Shown here: piece after piece, positions 28,305-57,924 of the stretch
Layout: each line of letters opens with the position of its first letter
Numbering within the stretch: the stretch's first letter is position 1
Origin: Narcine bancroftii
Lineage: Eukaryota
Direction of reading: 5' to 3'
Assembly: GCF_036971445.1 (NCBI RefSeq)
Contig: NC_091476.1
Span: 33,232,001 to 33,296,000 of the forward strand
Length of the DNA stretch: 64,000 nucleotides
Translations under genes and position numbers: made by a program
Notes under the pieces: generated by a model
Told to the model about the DNA's origin: nothing
Database searches by the model: none
Seen by the model: the letters and a program-made list of their open reading frames with translations, nothing else

Positions 28305-28319
28305 TTTTATTAACTAAAA
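28305..28319 (+). promoter_or_regulatory. Self-complementary primer-binding site candidate
   Basis: TTTTATTAACTAAAA is the exact reverse complement of LTR positions 28241-28255; there is no TGG-type tRNA PBS. Confidence 0.75.
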
Positions 28320-28334
28320 ATAAATTTTGAAGGG

Positions 28335-31300: not shown

Positions 31301-32463
31301 ACTCAATGACCTGCCAGATGTGCTCTCCAGGGGGACTTGTGCCAACATGCAACTGGACAGGCTACAGAAACTCCACAAGGAGCTCTGTCATCCTGGGGTC
31401 ACTAGGTTCGCGTACTTTGTCAAATCTCGCAACCTGCCTGACACAGTTGAGGAGATTCACTCCATGACCTGGGCCTGCCCAGTGTGCACTGAGTGCAAGC
31501 CCCACTTCTTCCGTCCGGAGAACACCCACACCATCAAAGCCACCCGCCCCTTTGAGCATCTCAGCGTAGACTTCAAGGGTCCCCTACCGTCGACCAACCA
31601 TAACACCTACATCATAACGGCCATCAACGAGTACTCCCGCTTCCTGTTCGCTGTGCCCTGCTCGGGCATGACTGCCTCCTCAGTCATAGATGCACAGCAT
31701 CTTTGCCATCTTTGGGTATCCCAGTTACATCCACAGTGACAGAGGGTCCTCGTTTATGAGCGCGGAGCTGCGTCAGTACCTTCTGGAGCGTGGTATTGCT
31801 TCAAGCAGGACCACCAGCAATAACCCATGGGGTGATGGGCAAGTCGAAAGAGAGAATGCCACCTTCTGGAAAGCGGTTACGCTTGCCCTCCGATCCAAAG
31901 GTCTCCCCACCTCTTGCTGGCAGGATGTGCTCACTAGTGCCCTACACTCCATCCGCTCCCTCCTATGCACCGCAACCAATGCCACCCTTCGTGAAAGGAT
32001 GTTCTCTTTCCCAAGGAAATCTGAGTCGAGTACGACCATACCGGCATGGCTCACAGTTCCCAGTCCAGTCCTTTTACGACGCCACGTCCGGTACTCTAAG
32101 AATGACCCCTTGGTTGACCGAGTGACTCTGCTCCATGTGAACCCGCATTATGCCTACGTTGAGTACCCAGATGGACGGGAGGATACAGTCTCGGTAAGGG
32201 TCCTAGCCCAAGCTGGATCAGATGCAGCAGTGCCTTTAACCCAACCTCCCCCTATTCCTTCTCCCCCAGGTCATGTGCTTGAACAGATGGACCAGCAACA
32301 CCTCACCAGCTCAGGCCAGACTGTCGACAACGGCATTGGGAAATTGAGCAAAGCAGTGGCCACACCATACAGGCCTGCCGGCGACACGACTCTGGCGACC
32401 CCAATCCCGGCGCCATGACGGTCATGCCGAATGGTCAGACCCCCTGACCGGTACAGCCCCTAA
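28335..32463 (+). pseudogene. Gypsy gag-pol polyprotein, disrupted
   Basis: Gag LATRRQQPSES and CYFCRRSKHSRSQC/CQKCLKNSHFAAVC knuckles; PR LFDSGS; RT PWRAQ, VVDYSQTIN, YLDNV; RH SSVEKEAQAIVEA; IN LHKELCHPG..CPVC, VDFKGPLP, HSDRG, GQVERENA. Confidence 0.93.
29290..29515 (+). repeat. Coding minisatellite (21-24 nt units) in the gag C-terminus
   Basis: GCCGCCACTGACCAGGGACCC-like units encode AAATDQGP/TAVDQGP/AAVNQGP repeats. Confidence 0.85.
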
Positions 32464-32490
32464 CCTCCATTCACCCTGGGGTCGGTTCTC

Positions 32491-32504
32491 AAAGAAGGGG
32501 TGAA
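32491..32504 (+). promoter_or_regulatory. Polypurine tract
   Basis: AAAGAAGGGGTGAA lies directly before the 3' LTR. Confidence 0.85.
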
Positions 32505-32586
32505 TGTGATAGTACAGATTCTATCACCAATGTGTATATGTACAGATGTACAGATGGTAATGTAGGATGACTGTGATTGGCTGAGA
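32505..32586 (+). repeat. Truncated 3' LTR
   Basis: Matches 28065-28146 with 3 substitutions in 82 bp, then stops abruptly. Confidence 0.9.
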
Positions 32587-32760
32587 CACCATAAAAGGAT
32601 GCACAATTTCAAAGTTTTTTTTGCATCAGGAAAATTATGAATATTATCATTTTTTTGTATTTATTGTCTTATAATTACACATTTGCAGTCGTTTTTTTTA
32701 ACAAATGACCTGTTCAAATGCAGTAAAAAAGAATGTTGATGCATGCACCATGTCTGTGAT
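32587..32760 (+). repeat. About 170-bp direct duplicate of the left flank 27891-28064
   Basis: CACCATAAAAG.ATGCACAATTTC...AAAAAAGAATGTTGATG is present on both sides of the Gypsy. Confidence 0.92.
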
Positions 32761-33729: not shown

Positions 33730-36400
33730 AACTGAATGGTGCATCAACATGGCCTCGCACTCAATGTCACCAAAACCAAGGAGCTGATAGTTGCCTTCAG
33801 GAAGCGAAAACCAGAGGTATACAATTCAGTGATCATTGGGGTATCAGAAGTGGAGAGGGTGAGCAAATTTAAGTTCTTGTCCAGACCCAGCATACTAATG
33901 GCTTTGTGAAAAAAGTGTATCAGCTCCTCTACTCACAGGTGTGTTGAGGAGACCTTGGCAAATCAGAAACTTTGGCAAATTTCGACAGATGTATGATGGA
34001 AAGTGTGCTGACCAGCTGCACCATAGTCTGTTATAGGGACACTAATACCCCTGAGAAGAAAACCCTGCAAAAGGTAATGGAAACAACCCAGAATATCAAA
34101 ACCTTCCCTACCATTGAGCACATCTACAGGGAACACTGCCTTTGGAGAGCAGCAGCAGTCATCAAAGACCCATACCATCCAGCACATGGTCTGTTCTTGC
34201 TGCTGCCATTAAGAAAAGGTATAGAGGACACAAAACTCACTCCACCATGTCCAGGAACAGTCATTACCCCTCCACCATTAGAATCCTCAACAGTAAACTA
34301 AATTCTTTGGCTTGGCTTCGCGGACGAAGATTTATGGAGGGGGTAAAAAGTCCACGTCAGCTGCAGGCTCGTTTGTGGCTGACAAGTCCGATGCGGGACA
34401 GGCAGACACGATTGCAGCGGTTGCAGGGGAAAATTGGTGGGTTGGGGTTGGGTGTTGGGTTTTTCCTCCTTTGCCTTTTGTCAGTGAGGTAGGCTCTGCG
34501 GTCTTCTTCAAAGGAGGTTGCTGCCCGCCAAACTGTGAGGCGCCAAGATGCACGGTTTGAGGCGATATCAGCCCACTGGCGGTGGTCAATGTGGCAGGCA
34601 CCAAGAGATTTCTTTAGGCAGTCCTTGTACCTTTTCTTTGGTGCACCTCTGTCACGGTGGCCAGTGGAGAGCTCGCCATATAACACGATCTTGGGAAGGC
34701 GATGGTCCTCCATTCTGGAGACGTGACCCATCCAGCGCAGCTGGATCTTCAGCAGCGTGGACTCGATGCTGTCGACCTCTGCCATCTCGAGTACTTCGAC
34801 GTTAGGGATGTAAGCGCTCCAATGGATGTTGAGGATGGAGCGGAGACAACGCTGGTGGAAGCGTTCTAGGAGCCGTAGGTGGTGCCGGTAGAGGACCCAT
34901 GATTCGGAGCCGAACAGGAGTGTGGGTATGACAACGGCTCTGTATACGCTTATCTTTGTGAGGTTTTTCAGTTGGTTGTTTTTCCAGACTCTTTTGTGTA
35001 GTCTTCCAAAGGCGCTATTTGCCTTGGCGAGTCTGTTGTCTATCTCATTGTCGATCCTTGCATCTGATGAAATGGTGCAGACGAGATAGGTAAACTGGTT
35101 GACCGTTTTGAGTTTTGTGTGCCCGATGGAGATGTGGGGGGTCTGGTAATCATGGTGGGGAGCTGGCTGATGGAGGACCTCAGTTTTCTTCAGGCTGACT
35201 TCCAGGCCAAACATTTTGGCAGTTTCCGCAAAGCAGGACGTCAAGCGCTGAAGAGCTGGCTCTGAATGGGCAACTAAAGCGGCATCGTCTGCAAAGAGTA
35301 GTTCACGCACACGTTTCTCTTGTGTCTTGGTGTGAGCTTGCAGGCGCCTCAGATTGAAGAGACTGCCATCCGTGCGGTACCGGATGTAAACAGCGTCTTC
35401 ATTGTTGGGGTCTTTCATGGCTTGGTTCAGCATCATGCTGAAGAAGATTGAAAAGAGGGTTGGTGCCAGAACACAGCCTTGCTTCACGCCATTGTTAATG
35501 GAGAAGGGTTCAAGGTTTTATCGGTTTTTACTTTTTTTTCAAATAATCCATCTTTGCTATGCCTTTTCTCTTGTAAACCCAAATAGCTCAACAGTTATTT
35601 GGAGAAAAATCAGTGGCCAAATGTGTTTTTTTTTAAATCCTGAGGGTGGGAAAAGTAAGATTTTTTTGTTGGGACCAAGGTAAACTGCCTCAGGATCTTC
35701 GTGATGCCACCATCATCACCCTGTACAAAAACAAAGGCGAGAAATCAGACTGCTCAAACTACAGGGGAATCACGTTGCTCTCCATTGCAGGCAAAATCTT
35801 CGCTAGGATTCTACTAAATAGAATAATACCTAGTGTCGCCGAGAATATTCTCCCAGAATCACAGTGCGGCTTTCGCGCAAACAGAGGAACTACTGACATG
35901 GTCTTTGCCCTCAGACAGCTCCAAGAAAAATGCAGAGAACAAAACAAAGGACTCTACATCACCTTTGTTGACCTCACCAAAGCCTTCGACACCGTGAGCA
36001 GGAAAGGGCTTTGGCAAATACTAGAGCGCATCGGATGTCCCCCAAAGTTCCTCAACATGATTATCCAACTGCACGAAAACCAACAAGGTCGGGTCAGATA
36101 CAGCAATGAGCTCTCTGAACCCTTCTCCATTAACAATGGCGTGAAGCAAGGCTGTGTTCTGGCACCAACCCTAAACTAAATTAGGGACTCGTTTAAGGAC
36201 TTATTTATGCACTTTATTTGCTTTGTTTTCCTCTCTATATTGCAAAGTTTGTTTGTATTTCTTTATTTGCTTATCAGTGTACATTGTGTACAGTTTTAAA
36301 TTTCCCGACCCTTAAGTGCTAATTCTGTATTGCCCACAGGAAGAAAAGAACCTCAGGGTGGTATGTGATGTCATCTAAGTACTCTGACAATAAATCTGAA
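33730..36400 (+). mobile_element. Rex-Babar LINE interrupted by an RTE insertion (34305-36171)
   Basis: KTKELIVAFRK, NFDRCMMESVLTSC, IKDPYHPAHGLFLLLP; the 3' UTR resumes at 36183 and ends GACAATAAATCTGAAATC. Confidence 0.8.
34305..36171 (-). mobile_element. Young RTE-clade LINE copy 1, 5'-inverted, with captured local DNA
   Basis: Uninterrupted ORF 34357-35487 (QGCVLAP, LFADD, C-terminal CNRC..H..C), a 157-bp insert, and an inverted segment at 35665-36171. TSD TAAACTAAATT at 34294-34304 and 36172-36182. Confidence 0.95.
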
Positions 36401-37344
36401 ATCACTCTGATTAATGAAGGCAAAAACGCCATATATCTTTTTTTGGCATCCTTTCTACTTATGTTGTCACTTTCAATGAACTGTGGGCTTACCCCCCAAA
36501 TAGATCAAATGATTACTGCTGGAACTGGACTGCCTGAACAGTCAGTTATCCAGTCATGAAGGTTTGTCTGAATTCGATCTAGTACAGACTGCAGACTTCA
36601 TGACATGAAATGTAAAACCAAGTGTCTCTGACGAAGAGTTCAAATCTACAAATAAGTCATTTAAATTATCTTCAACACCAAAACCTGTTGAAGATCAAGA
36701 AAATTCCAAAATTGTTTGTTTGTCACGTCTGCTTCAAAAATTAAAGGCAAGCAATGTAGTCAATCTTTCAGCAGAACTGCATGGCTCTTACTTTATTTTA
36801 TTTTATTCTCATGTATTATTTATAGTGATCGTCATCTCAAAAAGGTCATGTCCTCAGCTGGCTTTGCAATCAAATGACATTGGTACAGACATTAAATCTA
36901 CACCAAGAACTCAGATGCTCAACTTGAAAATACTTTGTCTGTGACTTTGCAAATAAACCTCACCTCTTTGGATATAAATGCTCCATCTTTATGTCTCCAT
37001 AAAGACATTACAAATTGCATTTTTTCAGCTTTAACTGGGCATCTGGGAGCCATGATTAACCATGAATGTCAGTGATATTTCCTGTTTCTAGATCATCAAC
37101 AAAGGTACAATCCCTTTGGAGTAGAGATCATTTAGCCAGGTTCTATTTATACTTAACCAGATGCTTGCCAATTTTAATATTGTTTCAAAATCTTACTTTT
37201 CCCACCCTCAGGATTTAAAAAAAAACACATTTGGCCACTGATTTTTCTCCAAATAACTGTTGAGCTATTTGGGTTTACAAGAGAAAAGGCATAGCAAAGA
37301 TGGATTATTTGAAAAAAAAGTAAAAACCGATAAAACCTTGAACT

Positions 37345-37465
37345 TTGGAGTGAAATGTTGGTTCTTTACTTTTGCTCCATGAAGGACGCTGTTTGACCCG
37401 CTGAGCTTCTCCAGCATTTTGTGTTTTTACTTCATCCACAGTATCTATGGAATTTTGTGATTTAA
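37345..37465 (+). mobile_element. Penelope-like terminal repeat remnant
   Basis: GAAATGTTGG...TTTGCTCCATGAAGGACGCTGTTTGACCCGCTGAGCTTCTCCAGCATTTTGTGTTTTTAC is shared with 58130-58215 and 61555-62000. Confidence 0.7.
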
Positions 37466-38349
37466 TTTGGATTATAACATTCACTCTAATAATAGGACAA
37501 TAAATGCCAGGTTTAGCACCATCACCCCTCATCTTGATTTTTCTCTGATTCATAGATATAGCAATGAGAACATTGATGGATCTCCCACCTTCTGGAGATT
37601 CCTTATCTATGGCCCTCTTTTAGAGTCATGCAACATTGAACAGGTCTATCAGGCCAACCTGTCCATGATGTCTAATCTGTCTTTCTGAGCTGATCCCAAT
37701 TGCCTGCACTTGCTCCATATTCTTCTAATTAATTCCTGTCCAGGTATCTTTTGAACATTGGTTATGATGCAAAGGGGACTGATTGCTATATAATTTACTT
37801 TGTTCATTTATTCCAAAGCATTCCAAGAGATTTTGTACTCAAACCAAATCTTAATGGAAAACGATTACATTTTCTTTATCACTTGGTCACAAATTAGCAT
37901 CCAACCCATCAGCAGGAGTGGAGAAAAAAATAAATGTCAGCGCCACAATATGAACTAAGAGCCTCAGACAATTAAGCCACATTGCCTTTATGTTTTACAC
38001 AGATCCCTTTAGTATGGTGAAAGATTTTGAACTACTGTATCTTATTTGAATATTTGTGCCTCCGAAAGCAAGAAGCTGATTCAACAGATCTAAGTTGTAA
38101 TTATTTGTTTTGTCCACTTGCATTTCAACATGCTTAAAGGGTATCACAGTTTAAACAAAACTTCAGATCTTTGAATAATTAAGTATTTTCATGCATGATG
38201 CTTCATCTAACGCATCCTTTATGTATGTTAACTTGTACTCAGTTTCCTTATGAGATTTGGAATGTTGTTCCATTTGAATGAACCAGATTTGTGGTGCAAA
38301 CACTTTTCAAACTGTATTTGACATGACTGTCACAGAGTCATGGAATTAT

Positions 38350-39822
38350 CTTTCTTTGGCTTGGCTTCGTGGACGAAGATTTATGGAGGGGGTAAAAAGT
38401 CCACGTCAGCTGCAGGCTCGTTTGTGGCTGACCAGTCCGATGCGGGACAGGCAGACACGATTGCAGCGGTTGCAAGGGAAAATTGGTTGGTTGGGGTTGG
38501 GTGTTGGGTTTTTCCTCCTTTGCCTTTTGTCAGTGAGGTGGGCTCTGCGGTCTTCTTCAAAGGAGGCTGCTGCCCGCCAAACTGTGAGGCGCCAAGATGC
38601 ACGGTTTGAGGCGTTATCAGCCCACTGGCGGTGGTCAATGTGGCAGGCACCAAGAGATTTCTTTAGGCAGTCCTTGTACCTTTTCTTTGGTGCACCTCTG
38701 TCACGGTGGCCAGTGGAGAGCTCGCCATATAATACGATCTTGGGAAGGCGATGGTCCTCCATTCTGGAGACGTGACCCATCCAGCGCAGCTGGATCTTCA
38801 GCAGCGTGGACTCGATGCTGTCGACCTCTGCCATCTCGAGTACCTCGCCGTTAGGGGTGTGAGCGCTCCAATGGATGTTGAGGATGGAGCGGAGACAACG
38901 CTGGTGGAAGCGTTCTAGGAGCCGTAGGTGGTGCCGGTAGAGGACCCATGATTCGGAGCCGAACAGGAGTGTGGGTATGACAACGGCTCTGTATACGCTT
39001 ATCTTTGTGAGGTTTTTCAGTTGGTTGTTTTTCCAGACTCTTTTGTGTAGTCTTCCAAAGGCGCTATTTGCCTTGGCGAGTCTGTTGTCTATCTCATTGT
39101 CGATCCTTGCATCTGATGAAATGGTGCAGCCGAGATAGGTAAACTGGTTGACCGTTTTGAGTTTTGTGTGCCCGATGGAGATGTGGGGGGGCTGGTAGTC
39201 ATGGTGGGGAGCTGGCTGATGGAGGACCTCAGTTTTCTTCAGGCTGACTTCCAGGCCAAACATTTTGGCAGTTTCCGCAAAGCAGGACGTCAAGCGCTGA
39301 AGAGCTGGCTCTGAATGGGCAACTAAAGCGGCATCATCTGCAAAGAGTAGTTCACGGACAAGTTTCTCTTGTGTCTTGGTGTGAGCTTGCAGGCGCCTCA
39401 GATTGAAGAGACTGCCATCCGTGCGGTACCGGATGTAAACAGCGTCTTCATTGTTGGGGTCTTTCATGGCTTGGTTCAGCATCATGCTGAAGAAGATTGA
39501 AAAGAGGGTTGGTGCGAGAACACAGCCTTGCTTCACGCCATTGTTAATGGAGAAGGGTTCAGAGAGCTCATTGCTGTATCTGACCCGACCTTGTTGGTTT
39601 TCGTGCAGTTGGATAATCATGTTGAGGAACTTTGGGGGACATCCGATGCGCTCTAGTATTTGCCAAAGCCCTTTCCTGCTCACGGTGTCGAAGGCTTTGT
39701 GTCGCTGAGAATATTCTCCCAGAATCACAGTGCGGCTTTCGCGCAAACAGAGGAACCACTGACATGGTCTTTGCCCTCAGACAGCTCCAAGAAAAGTGCA
39801 GAGAACAAAACAAAGGACTCTA
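38350..39822 (-). mobile_element. Young RTE copy 2, 5'-inverted
   Basis: Sense part 38350-39699 is an open ORF; inverted part 39699-39825. TSD CATGGAATTAT at 38339-38349 and 39823-39833. Confidence 0.95.
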
Positions 39823-40229
39823 CATGGAATTATACCACACAGATAAATAATCCTTTGGCACACCATCTGCATTCCAGCAATAAAGGACTATCATTTCTAG
39901 TCCCATATACAAGCACTTGATCCATGTCTTATCAAGTGAAATACTTTTCTAGATACTTTTTAAATGTTGTAAAAGACTCTGGCTTCAGTAACCCCTCAGA
40001 TGCGTGACCCAGATTCCAGCCCTCTCTGGATATAACAAATCTTCCCATTTTCTTACTCCTGATTTTAATTTGAAGCTTCTTTCTGTTTATCCTGTCTCAA
40101 ACATATTTCCCCTCATCCTCTCTCTCTCCATTCCCTGTGCATCCATTCTTTCCTCAAAATTAAAAGCTCCCATCCATGCTTCATGATGTTATTGAATGAG
40201 TTCTCTCCCTTACATTCTATGCCCTGTCT

Positions 40230-40640
40230 AATGAAGGCAAGATTCCTCGGGCTCAACATTGAATTTTTCATATTCAAATAACTTGCTCTATCTTTCAGTT
40301 TGCATTAGGAATGGCCATTCATATATGCCCTCCCTCTTCCTTTCTTTTTTCATATTCTGGCCTGATCAGCTTGTCCCACCAGGTTAGACATCACAGCAAT
40401 AGCAACACATGCCAAAGTCAATGAAGTTCAATTGTCCTTTCAAGGGCTGTCCACCATTTCACCCTATTGCAGAGACGCACTCTCTTCTCCACATTGCTCT
40501 CTTTCGGTGTCTCTATGATGTGACTAACTTGCTCAGTTCTTTTTCTCAGTTCTGGTTTCTCTTCCCACAGAAGTTGCTTGACTGGCTAATTACTTCCAGC
40601 ACTTTTGTTTTGGTTCAGATTCCAGCATCTACCATTTTAT
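40230..40640 (+). mobile_element. Old Penelope-like 3' remnant
   Basis: GGGCTCAACATTGAATTT (GLNIEF-like ORF end) and terminal TTCCAGCACTTTTGTTTTGGTTCAGATTCCAGCATC. Confidence 0.5.
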
Positions 40641-41979
40641 TTGTTTCCAAGATGAGTGATACAAATAAGTATTATTAATAAATACCATTAAGTCATTTGG
40701 AGAAAAGGCATAATTATATGGAACAAATGAAATATCTCTAATAGAGGGAATCTAAATGGCTTAATGAATTAATCTGAATTGTCTCATGTCAAAATGAATC
40801 CTGTCCCAAAGAAAAGCTTCCATTAACTTTCCTGCACTTATTTAATATCCCACTTTTACAAGTAACTTATTCTAAACTTTTATCATGGTTCTCCCTAAAA
40901 TTTCCAACTCTAACATCTTTCTCCTTTGTGAATGCAATTAGAAGTTTATACATTTCCGACTTCACCTGCATTGTCTGGCTCTGAACACAGATTACTTCAT
41001 GCCTCCTCAATGGGTTCTATTCATTTCCTGATAAACCCTATTGTGTTGAACATCATTATATAATTCTGCACACAAAAAGTGACATTTTCAGCTGGATATT
41101 CCAATTATTTTGCAGCACTGATGATGCTTAGAAAGACTTCAGAACCTTGCACCAAGCAACAGGCATTTTCAGAATTACATATTCTGATCATTTCAAATCA
41201 TGTTGCTAGCTGAATCTTAAAACAGTTAGACCATTATTGTTTGAAAGGATGGCCAGCTCACTCAAAATTGCATCAATTATATGCAAAACATTTTATGTTG
41301 CAAAAGCAGAACTAATTTAAATGGGAAAAAATACTTAATTTCCATTTAGTGAGGTCAATCTACAACTTTTGACACATTTGTATGACCTTTCTAAGAGCAT
41401 TATTATTCCACTGTTTTATTATTATTCCATCTTTTATTGTAAAGGACTTACAATCCATACATAATCACAATAAGAACCCTGCAATATTTTGCTTGTTGGC
41501 TGGTTCTACATTTCAGTCGGCACAGTATTTCTGTGATCTCTAATTTTTTTTGCTCAAACATGAGACAAATGTGCACCAACTGGATTACCATGTTGTTTTT
41601 TATGAGTAGATAAATCATAGTGGGTAGATAAACAGTAAAAACTTGGCCCCTTAAAAATCAGAAAATAAGGTGATGTCAGATGGAATACTGCCTGAGGATC
41701 ACTCAGCATGTGGAACAAACTAAGATCCACATACGGGAGTTATTTGCCTCTTCTTGTCAGTTGCTAAAGTTTTCCTTAATCCAGTGATTCAACTATTGCA
41801 GCCCCAACAATTTAATCAACACCATCTTTTTTCTTTTACTGTACCACTTCTACATTGTCTCCTACAAAGCAAAGGACTGCACAAGAGAGGAGGTGTTTGA
41901 TGAACAACTCCTGACAATCAAAATATTCAAATGGGGAAACCGTTAACATTTATCAGCATTCTTAAAAGTTGACAATGTG

Positions 41980-43150
41980 TTGTACTCCAACAACCTTTTG
42001 AAAGAAAGATAAAGGGTTAGAGATATGAGGTAGGGAAGAACAGTATTGTTGTGGAGTAGGTTTACATAGGTTGGTACCACATCATGGGCCGAAGCATCTA
42101 CACTCTACTGTGTTGCAATGATCTATCTTTTGAGCTAAACTGGAGTGCCACTAATATCCTTGCAGGGAGATATGCTTGTACATATACAGAAGTAGAAACT
42201 AGCTTGGCAGTGGGATGAAAACCAGAGCAGCAAGCTGCAAAAATCTTCCCTGAAGGGAACATTGAGGAGAAGGGAAAATTTAAGCCCAGTAAGTTTAATG
42301 GGAAGGACAAGCAGAGCCAGGTTTATAAACACTGAGGTACTGATTGGCTGTGTGTTTATTTCAAAGCAAGGGCTATTGTGGGTAAGGGAAATTAAAGATC
42401 ATCGGCATGGTTTATGGGGCAGGACAAGTCCTACAACCAATAGAAATTTTGAGGAGGTAATGCAGATGATTGATATCAGTAGGGCATTGGATATGGGCGA
42501 TGTAGATTTATAAAGCGTGTTTGACAAGATCTCTCATGGTTTACTGATTCAAATGATTAAACTCAGTAGATTGGATTCAAAAAATGGCCTGGCCATGGCT
42601 AACAGAGGATAGTGGTGTTTCTCTGACTAGATTTATATGGCCAGTGATGCTCATTATTGATCAGTGCTGGTTTCTGTGGTATCATGATACATATAATTAA
42701 TGAGGACATCAATGATCTAATAAAGCACAAAATTTTGAGGTGTAGTGATTGTATGGGAAAGCATCAGAGATGACAGATCAGTTGAATATATAAAGGAGAA
42801 ATGGCATGTGGAGTTAAATTTAGGCAAGTGTAATGTGTTGCAGAGAGATTAAATGTAAGGGGAATATATTCACTAAATAGCAAGATGCTTTGAATCATTG
42901 AATACATAGAGGTCTTGAGATGCAAGTCCATAGTTTCCTGAAAATGAAAACACAGATAGATAGGTGGTAAAGAAAGCATTCAGCATGCTTGCCTCATAGT
43001 TTAGGGCAGTGGGTATAAAAGCTGGCTGGTCAGGTTATTGCTGAATTATATCTGACATACAGGCAGATGGAATTAGTTGAATTTGGTACCATAGTCAGTA
43101 CAGACATCATGGACAAAAGTGTCTGTTCCTGTGCTGCACTAATCAATGTT
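41980..43150 (+). mobile_element. Two adjacent old CR1 remnants
   Basis: A CR1 tail ends about 42130, followed by a heavily deleted ORF2 (FDKISHG-like) and tail ending about 43150. Confidence 0.6.
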
Positions 43151-43199
43151 CCATTCATTCAATCATTCACTGGGGCCATTTTGCCATTCAGTTATATAA

Positions 43200-43690
43200 T
43201 TTGTAACTTTTGGTGACATTATCATAGGTAAAAGTTTGGGTTAATATAAGTAAATCCCCTAGAGCTTGTGCCCTCTTTGAAAATTTCTTCATCAGCCCTG
43301 AGCTCCCTCAAGAATCTTAGGATCGAAATTTCAGTCAATATTGGTCCACCATTAGTTGGGTACTCTTTCAACGCCTTACCTTTTTCCACTCCACTGATCC
43401 TGATATTACTGGATGGATTCCTCCCCAAAGCCTTTCCCTCACCAAATCCTGCCCCAATTTGTACAGCCTTCTGAAACTCCATTTCTTCAGAAACCATTTC
43501 AATTGACCTTATCTTCCCACAATGGGAAGATTCGTTCTCCTTATCCATTCTTCTTATCCTGCATGAAGTATGTACCTAATAATTTGATTGTCCATGTGGC
43601 TTTACAAACAAACTACAAAAACCTCCAATAATCTCGTACCCTTGGGTTTTTGATTATCTAAAACTGGCAGATATTCTGGCACATTGGATA
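43200..43690 (-). mobile_element. Possible old L1 ORF2 internal fragment
   Basis: SHCGKIRSIEMV resembles the L1 SLxGRIxxIKM motif. Confidence 0.35.
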
Positions 43691-43745
43691 TTATTTCCAT
43701 TAATATTTAAAAACATCTCTAATTCCATTTTTTTTAATGTTACAT

Positions 43746-44461
43746 CACTGGTTCTCAACTTTCTTTTCCCACTCACATACCATCTTAAGTAATCTCATTA
43801 ACCACAGAGCGCCTATGGCAAAGGATACCATAGGTGCCCTGTAGTTAGTAAGGGATTACTTAAGGCAGTATGTTTCCCTAGAACACTTCTACCAGCGTTG
43901 TCTCCGCTCCATCCTCAACATTCATTGGAACGACTTCATCCCAAACATCGAAGTACTCGAGATGGCAGAGGCCGACAGCATCGAATCCACACTGCTGAAG
44001 ATCCAACTGCGCTGGGTAGGTCACATCTCCAGAATGGAGGACCATCGCCTTCCCAAGATCGTGTTATATGGCGAGCTCTCCACTGGCCACCGTGACAGAG
44101 GTGCACCAAAGAAGAAGTACAAGGACTGCCTAAAGAAATCTCTTGGTGCCTGCCACATTGACCACCGCCAGTGGGCTGATATCGCCTCAAACCGTGCATC
44201 TTGGCGCCTCACAGTTCGGCGGGCAGCAACCTCCTTTGAAGATGACTGCAGAGCCAACCTCACTGACAAAAGACAAAGGAGGAAAAACCCAACGCCCAAC
44301 CCCAACCAACCAATTTTCCCTTGCAATGCTGAAACCGTGTCTGCCTGTCCCGCATTGGACTTGTCAACCACAAACGAGCCTGCAGCTGACGTGGACATTA
44401 CCCCTCCATAAATCTTCATCCGCGAAGCCAAGCCAAAGAAGAAAAAGTTTGAGAACCAGTG
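43746..44461. mobile_element. Palindromic hAT (Charlie-like) MITE, ~150 bp, interrupted by RTE copy 3
   Basis: TIRs CACTGGTTCTCAAC and TTTGAGAACCAGTG; 8-bp TSD TGTTACAT (43738) and TGTTACAC (44462); internal palindrome centred about 43822. Confidence 0.85.
43876..44447 (+). mobile_element. RTE copy 3 (older, 5'-truncated)
   Basis: Same family as 34305 and 38350 with more substitutions and a frameshift near 44325; tail AAGAAGAAAAAG. Confidence 0.92.
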
Positions 44462-44739
44462 TGTTACACAGTACTATAAGGCTTTTTCCATAGCAGCGTT
44501 GGAATGGGCCCTGATAGGTTTAAAGGGGGCATGAGATCAAAACCTCAGAGAGATTCAGGTAAGACAAATGCCAAACCATTGGGGTTTCCAGACTGTAAAG
44601 CAAAGGATAATCAGAGTTTCTCTGAACAATGTAAAACAAAAAAAAAGCAGCTAAACAATAGGAACTTAAAGCCATCTTTATTCCAAAATTCTGTCCATCT
44701 GATACAATTTAAAGAATGAATTTTGGATGTTTGCCTTTA

Positions 44740-45190
44740 CTTTCAAAGGAGACTTGGCATGTTGTCAAATACTCTGAGAAACCTCTGCAGGTATACTGTG
44801 GAATTTACACTGACTGGTCAATCACTACCTGACTTGGGCATTCAAATACCCAGGAACTCAGAAGGCTCCAGAAAATAGCAAACATAGTCAACTCAGTCAC
44901 AGGCACTGATCTCCCATCCACTGCAGACATCTATGTGAGAAACTGCTTCAAGAAAGCAGCCAGCATCTTAAAGGATCCCCATCATGCTGATCACAACCTC
45001 TTCTCACTGCTACATTTAGGCAGAAGATACAGAAGACCAGCACCTCAAGATTCAAGAGCAATTTCTTTCCAACAGCTATCAGGATCTTGGAACACCCCTT
45101 GTTACACTCATTAGGGTCTGCTCGACAGCACAAACAGACTGCCTGCACAATTGCAAAGCTACTTTTATTCTTGCCACCAGAGTTCACAAG
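44740..45190 (+). mobile_element. Rex-Babar LINE 3' fragment
   Basis: KKAASILKDPHHADHNLFSLLHLGRRYR..SRFKSNFFPTAIRIL. Confidence 0.75.
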
Positions 45191-46039
45191 CCACATCTCT
45201 GTTGGATGCATACATCTAATTCCACCATCTTTCCGTGAGACCTCCCTGACCATTTTACAGGCCATTAGTGGGAAACAAATGAAGCAATTACATAATTCAC
45301 TTACTTGAAGCTCATTCATGTTCCTACTCTGCCACCACCCAAGTGAACTTCAAACTTCAATCTCGCAGCACACATAAATTATATAATTTCTTGGCCATGA
45401 AGTTTTAAAGCATAGCAAGAGTTTTCAGGATGAAACTTTAATCAGATGAGTAGGAGGTTTTACGATCCTATTCTTTAAAATGCAAGGAAATATAACATGA
45501 TCATACCAACAGGTTGTTCGGAATAATTTGCAGAGATGTAAATTGAGCAAGAAATTTCAATTATGCTTTTATTCCTTTTGGTATAGACTCAGCTTTGGCA
45601 GTGGTGATATATCATCTCTTATTCTCCTCCCTTTCTTTTCACTCTGTTTATTTAATCAACACATTAAATGGAAAGATAATCCAGGGAGTACATTATGGTC
45701 CTGGATTTTAGTCCAATTATCAGTTCCTCAATATCATTTGGAAGAGACTAGGACATTTCTTTTAGGGATAATGATGGATGGTGCTGATCATATCCTTTAG
45801 TTCAGAGATATCTGATATTGTCTAAATCACTTCAGAGATCATCAGGATCTTTCTCCAATAGATTAAATTGCTGGAGAATAATATTCCAATCATTTTATTT
45901 TGCTCCATCATTTCCAAAATTCACAATTTCAAATGAGCATTACATTGAGGAGGTGTCTCTGAAAGTCTCTGCTGCACTGAGTTGAGGAAGGTAGCTCATA
46001 AGGAGCGATTAAACGGAAGAAACTTAAATTTTAATTTAA

Positions 46040-46287
46040 AAAGAATTTAGATATGCAGCATGGTAACAGGCCCTTTTGGCCCATAAGTCTGTGCTACCAA
46101 GTTTACACCCAATTAACCTATGGCCCTGGTAAGTTATGAATTGTGGGAGGAAACTGGAGCCCCTGGGGAAAACCCACGCAGATGTGGATAAAATGTACAA
46201 ACTCCTTACAAACAGGATTCGAACTTCAGTCCAGAATAATGGGTGCTTTTAAGGTGTTGCGCTAACCACTACACCAACCATGCCACC
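46040..46287 (-). mobile_element. V-SINE (HE1-like)
   Basis: Tail, V-domain GTGGGAGGAAACTGGAGCCCCTGGGGAAAACCCACGCAG and tRNA-like head. Confidence 0.88.
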
Positions 46288-47405
46288 CCTCACCCCCTCC
46301 CCCCCTCCCCCCCACTAACTGTTCTGTCCTGTTGGGATTGGGGATTGGTGGCTTTTGGAAATTTGGCTCTGGGGAAGAATTGAGGATTAGGTGGATCAAT
46401 CACAATAATTTTGAATGGTAGAGCAGGGTTGAGAGGCCTGACCACCTGATCCAGCTCCTATTTTTTTCTGCTTGTGTCACAAGAAATATCGTTTCAATAT
46501 ACTCTTAAAATAGAATTACTAATTAGACCACACGCTGAGAAAAGAAAATCCTAATGCAAATTCAAGTAGATAAGTAGAACAATCTTATGTAAACGATAGG
46601 CTCATCAATGACTCAGAAAGATGAAACAGCAATATGACATTGAGAGAACACTGATTGTTTTATAAATTCCATCGAAGCCATTTGTATGTCCTTTGACTGA
46701 TTGCTGCTGCAGTGCTCTCCAAAGGTTGACTGGACAGAAAAGAAATCATCATTTTTGGGGAGAAATTATAACATAAAATGATACATATTAGATGAAAAAA
46801 AACCCAATGTTTCCTAATATCCAAGGACACAAGAAGAATAGACTTATTCATTTTGAAACTTTGCATTAAATGTTTCATGTTACAATGCTATTATAAGGAA
46901 ATGAGCAATTAAGGGTAAAGGAACAATCTATGAAAATATTACATCTTGCAATTGGAAAAGAGTACACACCAGACTCATGACGTGAAGGAAATCCTGGAAC
47001 TCAAACTGCCTTGAGTGTGAAGGCAAGGAATTTAAGAACTTAATTAGCATTATTTGATGAAAATGTGGATTTTATTCTTCTACAGAATAGTGGAACATCC
47101 ATTACAGATTACTGAAACATTTTGTTGGAATCATTTAGCATTGCTCTATCAAATTCACTTCAAGCTATTGGGAAACATTATGCACCCATCTCTCTCCCAT
47201 ACTGTACTATCATTGGGAACACATGGGAGTAAACAGTGAACTCAACACAATATGCAAGAATTTACCAATGTAGAGGCATTAAATTATGCAATTTCCCAAA
47301 CTAAATACAATATTTGAAATTAAACATCTCACTATAAATATTGTGCGCATTATTGTCACACTTGTTTACACAATGTTTACAGGTTCATTAGCACTCAAGT
47401 GCCAA

Positions 47406-47805
47406 GATCGTATTATATGGCGAGCTCTCCACTGGCCACCGTGACAGAGGTGCACCAAAGAAAAGGTACAAGGACTGCCTAAAGAAATCTCTTGGTGCCT
47501 GCCACATTGACCACCGCCAGTGGGCTGATAACGCCTCAAACCGTGCATCTTGGCGCCTCACAGTTTGGCGGGCAGCAGCCTCCTTTGAAGAAGACCGCAG
47601 AGCCCACCTCACTGACAAAAGGCAAAGGAGGAAAAACCCAACACCCAACCCCAACCAACCAATTTTCCCTTGCAACCGCTGCAATCGTGTCTGCCTGTCC
47701 CGCATCGGACTGGTCAGCCACAAACGAGCCTGCAGCTGACGTGGACTTTTTTACCCCCTCCATAAATCTTCGTCCGCGAAGCCAAGCCAAAGAAAAAGAA
47801 AGAAA
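47406..47805 (+). mobile_element. Young RTE copy 4, simple 5' truncation
   Basis: 3' 400 bp of the family; TSD AGCACTCAAGTGCCAA at 47390-47405 and 47806-47821. Confidence 0.95.
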
Positions 47806-48334
47806 AGCACTCAAGTGCCAAACACATTGCATGTACAGCAATTAGAAGGACTATTTGTTTACAATCACACGAGTTCATTACTCACTGGGAGTTAAAATTG
47901 GATTTTAAGATTAAGATGTGTCAGAGTATAATCATTATTTTATTCTGTAGCCTTTAAAGAAGGTAACCTCTGTAATGGTGTTTCTATTTCATGCCATCAT
48001 ACATCAGTATATTTTCCAGACCAAGTTTCATCCTTATTTTCCTAGCTATTACATGAACCAAATCTATCTTCCACTTGCCCCTTTTACACAGAGCTTGAAA
48101 GTTTGGTTTTATGGCCTTTTGAGCGCTATGTGAAAGAATCGCAAGGTGGATTGGGGGTCTAGACTTACCCATCTTTGATCCACCTAAGTAGGCAGTCTTA
48201 GCGGTGGAACGTATTTGACTCATGGAACAGGCATTTTTCGGTTCGGTGTGAACTCACAAGCTACCTTCCTAAGATGGCTTTGCAGTTTAAAAGGGATTAC
48301 TAACTGCAGCAGCACAAGATTTTCTTCCATTTAA

Positions 48335-48560
48335 ATTTTGAGATACTCCACAGTATTAGAACCTTATGGCCCATGAGCTAACACTATGACATAATAATCC
48401 ACTAAGACTTGTCATGAATGTGGGAGAAACTGGAGCACTCGAAGGAAACCCAAATCATGGGGAGAACATATAAACTCTTTACAGATCGTGGCTGATTTGA
48501 AATCGAATCATTGGTGCTCAAATCATATTGCATGAACCTCTAGGAAACCAAGCCACCCAA
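48335..48560 (-). mobile_element. Old V-SINE
   Basis: TGTGGGAGAAACTGGAGCACTCGAAGGAAACCC V-domain. Confidence 0.7.
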
Positions 48561-48574
48561 ACAATACCTTTTTA

Positions 48575-49230
48575 TTACCTATGGCTTTCCCTTCACCACT
48601 TTCGAAGCAATCTCAACCACACCTCCTGTGTTTCCTAAATTTCTGCTCTCCCCAATCAGAATAAGGTGGGGATTCCATATTTCTTCACTTTTCATTCCAG
48701 TGGCACCAGCATTCAACAAATTATCCACCATAATATTTGCCACTTCAAAAAAAATTCCACCACTAGACACATCTTCTCCTCTTCTTCCCACCCACAACCC
48801 CTCCTCCCAGCCAAGTGAATAGCATATTCTTTCATCTGCTCCTTGGTCCATTCTTCCTTCTCTATTAATCACTTCTGATAATACTTCCCCATACCACCTG
48901 TAATTTTTATCTATTTCTTCCCAACATCCAGAGATCCAAATACTCGTTCCAATGAATCAGAAAATAACTCAGGGTTCTTCATATTTGCTATATTGTATCT
49001 GAAGGTCCTTTACTAAATTAGGACTGATCGACTTCTTTGCAAAACACCTCCCTTCAATCTGCAAGAATAACTGTGTATTCAGTATCCTGTCATGTGAATT
49101 TTCTATCCCATTCTGATTTGTCCTCAACCTGCTATATATCAAAGATATCCAATGATAGCTCTAAAAACAAAAACTCAACTGCCTACCAGGTAGGTTAGTC
49201 TAGGGACTTAACTTTGCATTCATCTTACTG
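48575..49230 (+). mobile_element. Penelope-like ORF remnant (linker/GIY-YIG region)
   Basis: QNKVGIPYFFTFHSSGTSIQQIIHHNICH...PTTRHIFS resembles the Penelope RVPLVLTFHP...RHIFP segment. Confidence 0.65.
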
Positions 49231-50061
49231 CCTTTATTTCTCCATTCTATCATCTCTTCCAGATGGGGGATCCCAGCCTCTACATAAAGTTCCCTTAGAG
49301 GTTGAAGATGCTTTTTGATCATTTGTGCATTTTGCTCAGCAGGTCAGAAAATGTTCCAAGCAGTTCTATATGTAATTGCATTTGTTACTGTAACATATGT
49401 TCTGACTTGAGTTTTCATTGGGATCCACGGAGGCAGTACAAATGTTCAATTGTTTTCCTCTCCAGTAACTTAACACACAATCTTCCATTTCTTTCTATCC
49501 TTATGGCCATCTGCTAGTCCTCTAGGATTCTCCACATGAAACATACGCCTCCAATCTATTATTTTCCATCCACATTACGGTATCTTGCACTTGACAAAGA
49601 GAAGCACAACGAAAAAGTATCACAACCCCCCCTCCCCCACCCACCCAACCCCCACAACTGTTGACAACATGCTTTGGAGTGGTAGGTCCTACTTCTTGAT
49701 ATGACAGGCATAAACCAATAGATAAGGGAAGCATAGCAATTGTGTGCTCTTAGGAGAAGCACTGAACTTGGAAGCAGACATGGAAAGGCAGTAATTACAT
49801 TACAATGACAGAAAGAAGCACAATAATGGACAGGAAAATACTCTCTCTTGTAGGCACATCTTTAGCCAGAGCCTGCCTGTGTGATCCTAATTAACCTACC
49901 ACAGAGAATTAAACAAGTACACTCAAATTCACAGAATTTCTTCCTGCACTCTTCTCAAAGTGAATGATGCAGTACTATGATTATTCAATTATGCAGCCAT
50001 CTCCAGGCAGTTTTTCTGCTCCGGTGTCTCCTGGTACTGAGGACATGGTTCCAATGCTCAC

Positions 50062-50420
50062 AACAGAATCACAGATTCACACTGCGAAAAACAAGCCCTT
50101 CAGCCCAATTCATCCATAGATTGTAAAGCCAAACTGGACTGATTTACACTGATTTGGCCTCAATATTTCTAAAGGTCTTTTAAACATTATAATTGAGTCC
50201 CGCTTTACAACTTACTCTGGAAACTCATTCACACTCTTTGTGTGAAGGAAATTGCTCCCCATTAAATATTTTCCAGTCACTTTAAACCTATGCCACCTTG
50301 ATTTGGGCTCCCCTACCCTGGGAAAAAGACTGCGACCATTCTCCTTATCTATGCCCCTCATCATTTTACCTATGTCAATGAGGTCATCCCTCAGCCTATA
50401 CTCCAGGTGGAAAAGTCTCT
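50062..50420 (-). mobile_element. CR1 3' fragment
   Basis: RLRDDLI..KMMRGIDK..SLFPRVGE; (CACAGAAT)n tail. Confidence 0.8.
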
Positions 50421-50867
50421 CCTTCAGTCCTTCTAACAATCCTTCTGGTGAATATTTTCTCATCAGCACATATATATTTGAATTGGAATCTGTAAATCTG
50501 TCATTCCTTTTCTCCGTTAAACTCCAAAGATAATATAAACACACACAAACACCTACTGTACCTGCTGGAGAGATTAGAGCCATGACAGGGACTCGAGGAG
50601 AAAAAGAATTAAAGAGGTAGTACTGCACCACCAATCATCATGGTTGCAGGAGAAAAACTTCACCTAGCAAGGAGCCACAAACTTTATCAACATAGGAGCC
50701 AGCTGGAGGGACCAATTTGCCTTCTCCAGCACCTATTTCAGATGTTTCTCTATCACACATTCACGATGCATTTGACATATTTACCAGGGTCACAATCAAA
50801 AACATAATTCAGTTTGCACTGGCATATACTGTATTTGCAGATGCTAGTTTAGTGATAACATGCTCAC

Positions 50868-51032
50868 CTTGAAGCCCATTGAGACCATGGAGATAGAAAT
50901 GGATACATCAACAGTGTGCGCTTGAACACCATTTTGCCATTTGACACTGATATTTGACACAAAGTAATCATTTAATCCTAAATACCTTTGGCTTCAGATA
51001 TTCTCTCCTTCTCAGATAAATTGTCGAGGTAT
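50868..51032 (-). other. Candidate 165-nt spliced exon (non-coding or 5' UTR plus start)
   Basis: Minus-strand acceptor TTTTTACTTTTCAG and donor AAG/GTGAGC in unique sequence; stops in all three frames. Confidence 0.25.
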
Positions 51033-51833
51033 CTGAAAAGTAAAAATATGCAGCAAATACAATCAACTGTCGAATGAAGAAAAAACTGCAGAACAATTGA
51101 TATTATTTCCCCAATTACACATAATATATTCGTATTCACAACATACTAGAATGAATGAATGTTGTAAATTTACTGCAGTCATGGAAAAAGGCAAAGTTCA
51201 GGGGGAAACAGTGCTACATTAAATAAATGAGAAGTAACAAGTCCAACAATGTGCACAATACAGCTAGCAGAGTGCAACATACATTATTAATGACAGTCTA
51301 TCGCGAAACCAAAAACAGTAACCGAGCAATGCAGTTTCATCAATTGTGCATGTAAACGAGTTGACCAGCAACATGTCCAACTTCTAATTCAATTAAAATC
51401 CATGGTAATTCTACATGCATATTAAGAAACAAAATAAAAACATGAAACTTTAAAAAGAAGATTGAAAATATAGATAATCATTAAATATATAGATCATTTT
51501 TATATTTTATTTCATATTTAATATGATTTTTTTGATGCAATGTTCACAGAAAAAGCTTTACATACTCGGAGAAGAGTGGATTTCCGTATTATCTGAATAT
51601 TTTATGAATTGACTTCTGCTGCTTGTCTCTGAAGTAAAATTATTATTCAGCACACTTGCTGCAAAAATTGCAAGTTTAATTTGGTTCATATCAGTTATGC
51701 CATGTATACTTGAGAAGTTCTGATATGCATGTTACGTTGAGAAAGAAATTCCTTGGAGATTATATCTTGGTAGATAAAAGAAGGACACATTAAATTTTAA
51801 TAGCATATTTTACTGATAATTAACTATTTGAAT

Positions 51834-52750
51834 GAAATGGTGCAGCCGAGATAGGTAAACTGGTTGACCGTTTTGAGTTTTGTGTGCCCGATGGAGATGT
51901 GGGGGGGCTGGTAGTCATGGTGGGGAGCTGGCTGATGGAGGACCTCAGTTTTCTTCAGGCTGACTTCCAGGCCAAACATTTTGGCAGTTTCCGCAAAGCA
52001 GGACGTCAAGCGCTGAAGAGCTGGCTCTGAATGGGCAACTAAAGCGGCATCGTCTGCAAAGAATAGTTCACGGACAAGTTTCTCACAAAGATAAGCGTAT
52101 ACAGAGCCATTGTCATACCCACACTCCTGTTCGGCTCCGAATCATGGGTCCTCTACCGGCACCACCTACGGCTCCTAGAACGCTTCCACCAGCGTTGTCT
52201 CCGCTCCATCCTCAACATCCATTGGAGCGCTTACATCCCTAACGTCGAAGTACTCGAGATAGCAGAGGTCGACAGCATCGAGTCCACGCTGCTGAAGATC
52301 CAGCTGCGCTGGATGGGTCTTGTCTCCAGAATGGAGGACCATCGCCTTCCCAAGATCGTGTTATATGGCGAGCTCTCCACTGGCCACCGTGACAGAGGTG
52401 CACCAAAGAAAAGGTACAAGGACTGCCTAAAGAAATCTCTTGGTGCCTGCCACATTGACCACCGCCAGTGGGCTGATAACGCCTCAAACCGTGCATCTTG
52501 GCGCCTCACAGTTTGGCGGGCAGCAACCTCCTTTGAAGAAGACCGCAGAGCCCACCTCACTGACAAAAGGCAAAGGAGGAAAAACCCAACACCCAACCCC
52601 AACCAACCAATTTTCCCTTGCAACCGCTGCAATCGTGTCTGCCTGTCCCGCATCGGACTGGTCAGCCACAAACGAGCCTGCAGCTGACGTGGACTTTTTA
52701 CCCCCTCCATAAATCTTCGTCCGCGAAGCCAAGCCAAAGAAAGAAAAAAG
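51834..52750 (+). mobile_element. Young RTE copy 5, 5'-inverted
   Basis: Inverted part 51832-52084, sense part 52082-52750; TSD AACTATTTGAAT at 51822-51833 and 52751-52762. Confidence 0.95.
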
Positions 52751-53348
52751 AACTATTTGAATAGACATACAACTTAAAGAAAGAAAACTTTTCCTGGGCA
52801 GCATTATTCATTATAGTTTCAGTATAAACTTAAGGTGAAACTTAAACAAGAGTTAAATCTTATGTAACATTATATTTTTGTTCTCACGGTTCTGACTTTG
52901 GAGCAAATTGCAATTTTTTGAACATTTTTAAGAAATATAATGAAGGGGTGTATCCTTGAAATGGTCAACAGTACCTCCATATGATATTAATGGGGCCACT
53001 TTCCTCATTTAATAAACACTTGTGGTTAGTAATGCAACAGCTTCATGTCTTCTGTGTCTTGACCTGTACCTGCACCAAGTGGGGATTGATACACCTGCTT
53101 CAAAACTGTTCCTTTTGTTACTCAAAATATTTACACAGGACCTGATGCATTTAGGATAAATGCTTTGCACTGTCGTGGATTGTTTATAAAGTAGCTACAA
53201 CAAGGAATTTACCATCATATTATATTATTTTGATGCTCTGTACTGAATGTTGGAATGATTCAGCTATATGTTTGAGCTCCATAAGCATGTGGGAACTACA
53301 GCTGTGCTACCAATGGTTTGTTGTCCCAAGCTAGTCTATATCACCTCC

Positions 53349-57618: not shown

Positions 57619-57924
57619 TGGATAGGTGTGTGGTTATCCACTTTGGAGGAAAGAATGGGAGGGCTGAGTGCTATCTTAATGGTATCCAATTAGGAAAAGG
57701 GGAGATGCAAAGAGATCTGGGTGTCGCTGTGCATCAGTCATTAAAAGTGGGCAAGCAGGTGCAGCAAGCAGTAAAAAAGGCGAATGGTATGTTGGCGTTC
57801 ATATCAAGAGGATTCGAGTCCAGGAGCAGGAGCAGAGAGGTATTGATGGATTGTATAGGGCCTTGGTGAGACCTCACCTGGAGTATTGTGTTCAGTTTTG
57901 GTCTCCTTATCTGAGGAAGGACAT
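57619..57924 (+). mobile_element. Internal CR1 fragment, near-identical to 60510-60809
   Basis: By eye, 3 substitutions plus a 6-bp duplication relative to 60510-60809; lacks the 3' tail. Confidence 0.92.

What the first reader, a model, noticed from the sequence alone, without database searches (positions are those of the whole stretch)
34294..52762. Three of four young RTE copies carry twin-priming-type 5' inversions
Seen: copies at 34305, 38350 and 51834 each have an 11-12 bp TSD and an inverted 5' segment. The outer end of each inverted segment shares 1-3 nt with the TSD, and in element coordinates it lies close to the start of the sense part (57-nt overlap, 18-nt gap, about 100-nt gap). 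Inner junctions have microhomology (G at 39699, CTC at 52082-52084). Established: this geometry is the twin-priming signature described for mammalian L1. Inference: to my knowledge it is seldom reported for RTE-clade LINEs, so this rate may reflect unusual early second-strand nicking or host repair. The sample is only four copies.
Basis: partly seen in the sequence, partly recalled or inferred. Interest (0 to 1): 0.75.

Follow-up and report, generated by a model that had tools for sequence, protein, structure and literature searches.

The report
Twin-primed inversions in RTE retrotransposons
Three of four recent copies of an RTE-type jumping gene in a shark- or ray-like genome were inserted with their front part flipped, a habit documented mainly for mammalian L1 elements; the flips are real and also occur in RTE elements from other organisms, but four copies cannot show that this genome does it unusually often.

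Summary
Observation confirmed. Three of four young RTE-type LINE copies have an exact 11-12-bp TSD, a flipped 5' piece, outer microhomology of 1, 3 and 2 nt, and a 57-nt overlap or an 18- or 104-nt gap. Twin priming fits best (0.85). The host is probably a cartilaginous fish. The trait is not special to this host: 3 of 88 loci of RTE relatives carry TSD-flanked 5' inversions, and 2 more have the geometry without testable ends. The scan noted it before in another genome (e1-7812926, about 1 in 10). The rate claim is unproven: 3/4 has a 95% interval of 0.19-0.99 and fits L1's 31% (P=0.09). No genome was held and the contig tables were cut. Eight literature searches found no report of RTE 5' inversions, but the key 2008 paper was unavailable. 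Known mechanism, apparently under-reported clade; it supports an overhang-length rule. Interest 0.42.

The parts
34294..34304 (-). Copy 1, 3' TSD (11 bp)
   Evidence: Exact repeat of 36172-36182
34305..35512 (-). Copy 1, sense part: RT C-terminal half, short 3' UTR, AAAG-type tail; 1208 nt
   Evidence: 98.4% to copy 2; tblastn to P0001 aa 668-1055; length
35508..35664 (.). Copy 1, 157-bp templated insert at the inner junction: exact inverted copy of flank 37187-37343; 5-nt microhomology with the sense part, A/T-run microhomology with the inverted part
35665..36172 (+). Copy 1, inverted 5' segment (about 508 nt; P0001 aa 518-686); its outer 57 nt duplicate the start of the sense part
   Evidence: Pfam RVT_1
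36172..36182 (-). Copy 1, 5' TSD; 1 nt shared with the inverted segment
37187..37343 (+). Source of the templated insert, 1005-1161 bp into copy 1's 5' flank; no other copy in the window
38339..38349 (-). Copy 2, 3' TSD (11 bp)
38350..39699 (-). Copy 2, sense part (1350 nt, open RT frame; P0001 aa 622-1055)
39699..39825 (+). Copy 2, inverted 5' segment (127 nt); 18-nt gap to the sense start; 1-nt inner and 3-nt outer microhomology
   Evidence: native order seen in X6 record 31
39823..39833 (-). Copy 2, 5' TSD
43877..44446 (+). Copy 5: older (92-96%), simply truncated, no TSD found, lies inside a short element with terminal inverted repeats
47390..47821 (+). Copy 4: young, simply 5'-truncated, 400 nt between 16-bp TSDs, 4-nt 5' microhomology (CCAA)
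51822..51833 (+). Copy 3, 5' TSD (12 bp); 2 nt shared with the inverted segment
51832..52084 (-). Copy 3, inverted 5' segment (253 nt; P0001 aa 732-815); 104-nt gap to the sense start; CTC inner microhomology
52082..52750 (+). Copy 3, sense part and tail (669 nt)
52751..52762 (+). Copy 3, 3' TSD

Best explanation
These are three independent target-primed insertions of an RTE-type LINE made by twin priming. The endonuclease nicks both strands 11-12 bp apart (shown by the TSD). The first 3' end primes on the AAAG-type RNA tail and copies towards the 5' end. Before it finishes, the second 3' overhang pairs by 1-3 nt inside the same RNA near the point reached and primes a second cDNA (inferred from the geometry). 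The two cDNA ends are then joined by microhomology, leaving a gap (18, 104 nt) or a duplication (57 nt). In copy 1 one cDNA end first copied 157 nt of the 5' flank 1 kb away; the simplest route is the second cDNA folding back onto its own strand after about 1.2 kb of resection of the partner strand (inferred). Twin priming is probably a general ability of RTE elements, allowed by their 10-12-nt overhang, not a quirk of this host. This family's true rate is most likely about 10-45%, L1-like, with 3 of 4 partly a chance high draw.
For: Exact TSDs enclose both pieces in all three copies. Outer microhomology 1, 3, 2 nt: P=0.018 that all are at least 1, 3e-4 jointly, for random junctions. Outer ends lie within 57, 18 and 104 nt of the sense start, chance about 0.035, 0.011 and 0.063 each on a 3.3-kb element. 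The three breakpoints differ, so the structure is not inherited from one rearranged master. The 57-nt overlap is exact and needs two rounds of copying. The pattern matches L1: 66% gaps, 17% duplications, inverted copies longer (bioRxiv 10.1101/2024.08.27.596794, section 4 part 1 read); here inverted copies are 1867, 1473 and 917 nt against 400 nt. The same structure with TSDs of 9, 10 and 12 bp occurs in RTE relatives L002, L027 and L085. PMC4245944 (passages) ties inversion to overhangs of 10-20 nt and gives the RTE TSD peak as 10-12 bp. Posterior mean rate is 0.27-0.38 under sceptical priors of my choosing.
Against: No empty site was seen, so TSDs and microhomology are read from filled sites only. 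The mechanism is inferred from end products. The copy-1 template lies 1 kb away, whereas L1 templated insertions usually come from within 15 bp. In the contig lay, only 1 of the 12 non-native joints shown for X1/X3 changed strand and 11 were skips (15 of 118 rows shown), which leans weakly against a high rate. PMC4245944 found no inversions for human L1 in chicken cells despite 15-bp TSDs, so overhang length is not sufficient on its own and host factors matter too.
Confidence: 0.85

Rival explanations
1. Break-and-flip by host end joining: one long cDNA or RNA-DNA hybrid was cut and its 5' part was joined back in reverse by microhomology-mediated repair, with no second priming on RNA.
For: Microhomology at all junctions and a flank-templated insert are marks of alternative end joining; PMC11702581 (passages) says L1 inversion junctions are resolved by c-NHEJ or MMEJ.
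Against: The exact 57-nt duplication in copy 1 needs the region to be copied twice. Intact 11-12-bp TSDs fit a second end protected by priming (PMC11702581).
Confidence: 0.08
2. Ordinary truncated copies were inverted or rearranged after insertion, or two separate copies landed head to head.
For: Five copies lie within 18.5 kb of the 64 kb (P=0.027 for uniform placement), and table 5c shows tandem-like joins of this family elsewhere.
Against: It needs a breakpoint exactly at the TSD edge three times. The inverted pieces have no tail or TSD of their own, continue the element coordinates, and are 97.6-99.5% identical to sister copies.
Confidence: 0.04
3. The inversions are assembly or library artefacts in a very high-copy repeat.
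For: The family is extremely abundant (83,351 contigs laid in X1). Copy 1, copy 3 and all inner junctions were not checked against reads.
Against: Mis-assembly does not create exact TSDs. Contigs of runs X1 and X3 run from unique flank into copy 2 at both ends without a mismatch (37900-38373 and 39797-40300), although under 31 letters lie on the element side and these runs may be the source sample.
Confidence: 0.02

Closest known systems
5'-inverted (twin-primed) mammalian L1 insertions (Ostertag and Kazazian 2001, not read, known through PMC2912911, PMC4245944 and bioRxiv 10.1101/2024.08.27.596794)
   Same: TSD around an inverted 5' piece plus a sense 3' piece; microhomology at outer and inner junctions; short gap or duplication at the inversion point; inverted copies longer. 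L1 rates: 639 of 2068 germline, 1836 of 3598 in tumours.
   Different: The element is not L1 (best PDB match, L1 ORF2p, only 72 bits). It has one ORF, an AAAG-type tail rather than poly(A), and 11-12-bp TSDs. The host is probably a cartilaginous fish.
Templated insertions in somatic L1 integrations (bioRxiv 10.1101/2024.08.27.596794; PMC11702581)
   Same: A non-element genomic piece under 250 bp copied into the insertion.
   Different: Those templates typically lie within 15 bp of the site; here the template is 1005-1161 bp away, inverted, and sits at the inner junction of a twin-primed copy.
RTE-clade LINEs of animals (BovB, AviRTE and aquatic RTEs; PMC6007223, PMC4844689, PMC13295347)
   Same: Single EN+RT ORF of about 1055 aa, short 3' UTR with a microsatellite-like tail, TSD near 10-12 bp starting with A, T run upstream.
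   Different: No 5' inversion is described in these papers: the word occurs only in a reference title (PMC6007223) or not at all in the main text. No named RTE sequence could be compared.
Nimb-2_DR single inverted insert in chicken DT40 cells (PMC4245944)
   Same: A non-L1 LINE with TSDs near 12 bp producing a 5' inversion.
   Different: One event in culture, in a different clade; here natural germline copies and several RTE families.

Membership tests
Twin-primed 5'-inverted insertion | One TSD flanks both inverted and sense parts | tested here: met
   11, 11 and 12 bp exact
Twin-primed 5'-inverted insertion | Outer end of the inverted piece lies near the sense start in element coordinates (short gap or duplication) | tested here: met
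   57-nt overlap, 18-nt and 104-nt gaps (18 nt confirmed by X6 record 31)
Twin-primed 5'-inverted insertion | Microhomology between the TSD 3' end and the internal RNA priming site | tested here: met
   1, 3 and 2 nt; joint chance 3e-4
Twin-primed 5'-inverted insertion | Microhomology at the inner junction | tested here: met
   1 and 3 nt in copies 2 and 3; copy 1 is joined through a 157-bp insert with 5-nt and A-run microhomology
Twin-primed 5'-inverted insertion | Inversion arose at insertion (empty site, no un-inverted allele) | tested here: inconclusive
   No empty-site joint among the 15 of 118 rows shown for copy 2; runs X5 and X6 do not cover the flanks
Twin-primed 5'-inverted insertion | Second priming on the same RNA by the element's RT | not testable with these tools
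   Needs a biochemical or cell assay
RTE-clade LINE | Single ORF with APE endonuclease and RT, no ORF1 | tested here: met
   Shown on relatives, as the window copies are truncated: 70-75% identical proteins of about 1055 aa with PF03372/PF14529 and PF00078; L001 has one long ORF (1059 aa) and no ATG ORF of 80 aa or more upstream
RTE-clade LINE | Short 3' UTR ending in a microsatellite-like tail | tested here: met
   AAAG-type tails in all five copies; near-identical 3' end in L001
RTE-clade LINE | TSD 7-15 bp (peak 10-12), starting with A, T run about 10 nt upstream (PMC6007223) | tested here: met
   4 of 4 TSDs start with A after a T; 3 of 4 are 11-12 bp and one is 16; T at -13 and -14 in 4 of 4, a loose fit to 'about -10'
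RTE-clade LINE | RT phylogeny groups with named RTE families | not tested
   No named RTE reference among the hits; a tail motif was absent from two papers' supplements. RTE-type RT motifs are recalled, not tested
L1 clade | ORF1 plus ORF2, poly(A) tail, close to L1 ORF2p | tested here: not met
   Single ORF, AAAG-type tail, only 72 bits to L1 ORF2p

The most novel reading that the evidence does not exclude
This cartilaginous-fish RTE family inverts most of its longer insertions (50% or more, above germline human L1), because its endonuclease cuts the second strand early and the RT primes readily from the 11-12-nt overhang; the joining step can also fetch filler DNA from more than 1 kb of resected flank. 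It would be the best natural model of twin priming outside mammals and would overturn the view that frequent inversion needs L1 in a human-like cell.
Probability: 0.15. Interest if true: 0.7.

Novelty: new member of a known kind. Interest (0 to 1): 0.42.

Why it matters
The cell study I could read concluded that 5' inversion needs features of L1 and of human cells, and guessed that the target overhang must be about 10 nt or longer to prime (PMC4245944). Six TSD-flanked RTE inversions, three here and three in relatives, have TSDs of 9, 10, 11, 11, 12 and 12 bp. That moves twin priming outside both L1 and mammals and makes the overhang rule directly testable across LINE clades in long-read assemblies. 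Inversion also inactivates copies and confuses repeat annotation for a clade known for horizontal transfer. The mechanism itself is not new, and the high rate is not established.

Tried and rejected
Genome-wide count: no genome is held. Exact or degenerate 3'-end patterns found nothing in viral contigs or metagenome contigs; protein scans of viral contigs found no relative. Laying contigs on copy 2 gave no rate: 15 of 118 joints and 24 of 2986 loose-end rows were shown, and the tool said some were not counted for X1/X3. The two skip joints shown only for X5 lie at GATC/GANTC sites at both ends, as Hi-C ligation would give, and were dropped. The one strand-changing joint of another copy (38922/39079, X1 and X3) has a GANTC site near one end, so it is only a hint. 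From my own knowledge, short low-depth links between high-depth contigs tend to be removed in such assemblies, which would hide young inner junctions. Among relatives, L048 (hairpin-like, inverted piece from downstream) and L058/L060 (an inserted element with inverted ends) were rejected; L011's minus-strand hit is a distant separate element. My automated classifier missed L002, which was classed by hand. TSDs were not convincingly found for the simply truncated relatives tried, so the denominator of 25 is rough and includes duplicates (L023/L047, L042/L045) and probable alignment drop-outs. A Pfam scan of 55 other ORFs found no host gene. Folding of the 3' end gave z=-2.3, not pursued. Inheritance from a rearranged master copy was rejected because the three breakpoints differ.
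Full report
Check of the observation. A self-comparison of the window and a search with the two longest pieces found five copies of one LINE family between 34.3 and 52.8 kb; a search with the 3' end found no further copy. Copies 1-4 are 97.9-99.7% identical over the shared 3' 390 nt and copy 5 is 94.7-95.7% identical there. Copies 1, 2 and 3 have exact TSDs of 11, 11 and 12 bp and an inverted 5' piece; copy 4 is simply truncated with a 16-bp TSD; copy 5 has no TSD. Chance of an exact 11-mer at such offsets was 0.000135. Outer microhomology is 1, 3 and 2 nt, inner microhomology 1 nt (copy 2) and 3 nt (copy 3), and the offsets are a 57-nt overlap, an 18-nt gap and a 104-nt gap.

In copy 1 the inverted and sense parts are separated by 157 bp (35508-35664) that are an exact reverse complement of 37187-37343, unique flank 1005-1161 bp beyond the 5' TSD. 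The insert shares TGAAC with the sense part and an A run with the inverted part. Read along the element's strand, the insert is what a 3' end of the second cDNA would make by folding back on its own strand in the 5' flank, which would be single-stranded if the partner strand were resected by about 1.2 kb. That step is inference; invasion of the duplex by the first cDNA would give the same product. The older fifth copy makes the tally 3 of 5.

What the element is. The pieces encode an RT (Pfam RVT_1). The nearest long proteins are 70-77% identical; most are about 1055 aa and carry endonuclease and RT domains, many on 3.5-4.7-kb contigs; named ones come from amphioxus, a sea urchin, crustaceans and teleosts. 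Locus L001 has one 1059-aa ORF with no ORF1 and a near-identical 3' end. Human L1 ORF2p matches at only 72 bits. All four TSDs start with A after a T, with T at -13 and -14; PMC6007223 (abstract and section 15 read) reports A-starting TSDs, a T run near -10 and a 10-12-bp peak for animal RTEs. RTE membership therefore rests on architecture and target signature; no tree with named RTEs was made. The host is probably a cartilaginous fish: the CR1-like endonuclease at 22350-23183 is 72-74% identical to proteins of a skate and a stingray, and all 9 hits of 13 that carry a species name are sharks or rays.

Mechanism. One TSD around both pieces, microhomology at the outer junction (joint chance 3e-4), outer ends next to the sense start, and an exact duplication in one copy are the twin-priming signature. 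In tumour L1 insertions 66% of inverted copies have a gap and 17% a duplication at the inversion point, and inverted copies are three times longer (bioRxiv 10.1101/2024.08.27.596794, passages and section 4 part 1); here two have gaps, one a duplication, and lengths are 1867, 1473 and 917 nt against 400 nt. Break-and-flip repair does not readily give the duplication; later inversion or head-to-head insertion needs breakpoints at the TSD edge three times; a rearranged master is excluded by three different breakpoints.

Read support. Contigs of runs X1 and X3 (one sample, perhaps the source) run from flank into copy 2 at both ends with no mismatch, though with fewer than 31 letters on the element side. 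A contig of another organism (X6) shows the two pieces in native order 18 nt apart. Copies 1 and 3 and the inner junctions were not checked against reads. The family is very abundant: 83,351 contigs laid in X1, 13,894 in X5, 169 in X6.

Rate. No genome was held and the lay tables were cut, so no genome-wide rate exists. Of 15 joints shown of 118, one is the native element order, two are X5-only joints at restriction sites, and of the other 12, 11 skip sequence and 1 changes strand. That leans weakly against a majority rate. Three of four has an exact 95% interval of 0.19-0.99; P is 0.0037 at a true rate of 10%, 0.027 at 20% and 0.084 at 30%, and 0.09 at the germline L1 rate of 639 of 2068 (PMC2912911 section 8). 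A rate under about 5% is unlikely (P=0.0005 at 5%). With two sceptical priors the posterior mean is 0.27-0.38 and the chance of a rate above 0.5 is 0.03-0.19; a flat prior gives 0.57-0.67 and 0.66-0.81. None of these corrects for the window having been chosen for this pattern.

Relatives. Scans with an alignment of 28 proteins gave 80 metagenome loci (the best 80 of 511 confirmed) and 8 loci from prokaryote genome assemblies, presumably eukaryotic contaminants. Three of the 88 carry a 5' inversion inside a TSD. L002, a close relative (73%), has a 9-bp TSD, 4 nt shared at the outer end and a gap of about 460 nt. L027 has a 10-bp TSD with the outer end within about 15 nt of the sense start. L085 is a decayed, near full-length copy with a 12-bp TSD. 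L019 and L069 have the geometry but their contigs end before a TSD can be tested. Of the 80 metagenome loci, 34 had a complete 5' ORF, 21 ended inside the element and 25 showed an apparent 5' junction; 2-4 of these 25 are inverted. The sample favours long copies and its denominator is rough. Their hosts were not identified.

In-window controls. The two long CR1-like copies (from 20397, minus; 58890-61328, plus) are colinear and no opposite-strand piece adjoins either; their TSDs were not examined. An L1-like copy near 3200-6200 shows RT and endonuclease motifs on the minus strand only. These are tiny samples.

Literature. PMC4245944 (passages) found 5' inversions only for human L1 in human cells, apart from one Nimb-2 insert, and suggested that a 5-nt overhang is too short to prime while L1 inversions have 10-20-bp TSDs; human L1 gave none in chicken cells. 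Eight searches gave no paper reporting RTE 5' inversions. Term searches inside PMC6007223, PMC5389967, PMC13295347, PMC4844689 and PMC2718515 found the words only in reference titles or not at all. PMC4476161 (passages) describes twin-primed snRNA chimeras for L1 and says L2 and RTE form U6 chimeras only by template switching. Ichiyanagi and Okada 2008, the main study of RTE junctions, was not held, and most subscription papers are outside the library, so absence from print is not established.

Verdict. Real feature, known mechanism, apparently under-reported clade and host, with an unusual long-range templated insert in one copy. The claim of an exceptional rate is open and more likely wrong than right. 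Novelty: new member of a known kind. Interest 0.42.

Noticed in passing
window 28065-32586: Gypsy-type LTR retrotransposon (aspartyl protease, RNase H, integrase pieces), broken into several frames. The right LTR matches the left for only about 82 bp, and 174 bp of the left flank (27890-28063) recur at 90% identity right after it (32586-32760).
   Followed up: partly
window 20397-24433 (minus), 58890-61328 (plus), 57619-57924 (plus): CR1-like LINE copies, 95.6% identical between the two long ones; one includes ORF1; nearest named proteins are from skate, stingray and sharks. No inversion seen.
   Followed up: partly
window about 3200-7400 (minus): L1-like LINE remnant with RT and endonuclease motifs and an upstream coiled-coil-like ORF at 7109-7360.
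   Followed up: partly
window 43746-44461: The oldest RTE copy sits inside a short, nearly palindromic element with terminal inverted repeats; no TSD, and comparison of the two arms suggests about 10 bp of target were lost.
   Followed up: partly
window 34294-52762: All five RTE copies fall within 29% of the window (P=0.027 for uniform placement); possible local insertion preference.
   Followed up: partly
table 5c, places 38449-38765 joined back to 38351-38371: Contigs join short 3' pieces of the family to the tail of another copy through 1-16 other letters, suggesting tandem insertions of this RTE elsewhere in the genome.
   Followed up: no
table 5: Many same-strand skips of 32-974 nt in other copies at depth 13-20 in both X1 and X3, suggesting frequent internal deletions in this family.
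   Followed up: no
L083, L084, L085, L087 and L086, L088: Eukaryote-type RTE LINE copies lie in contigs of two bacterial genome assemblies, probably contamination.
   Followed up: no
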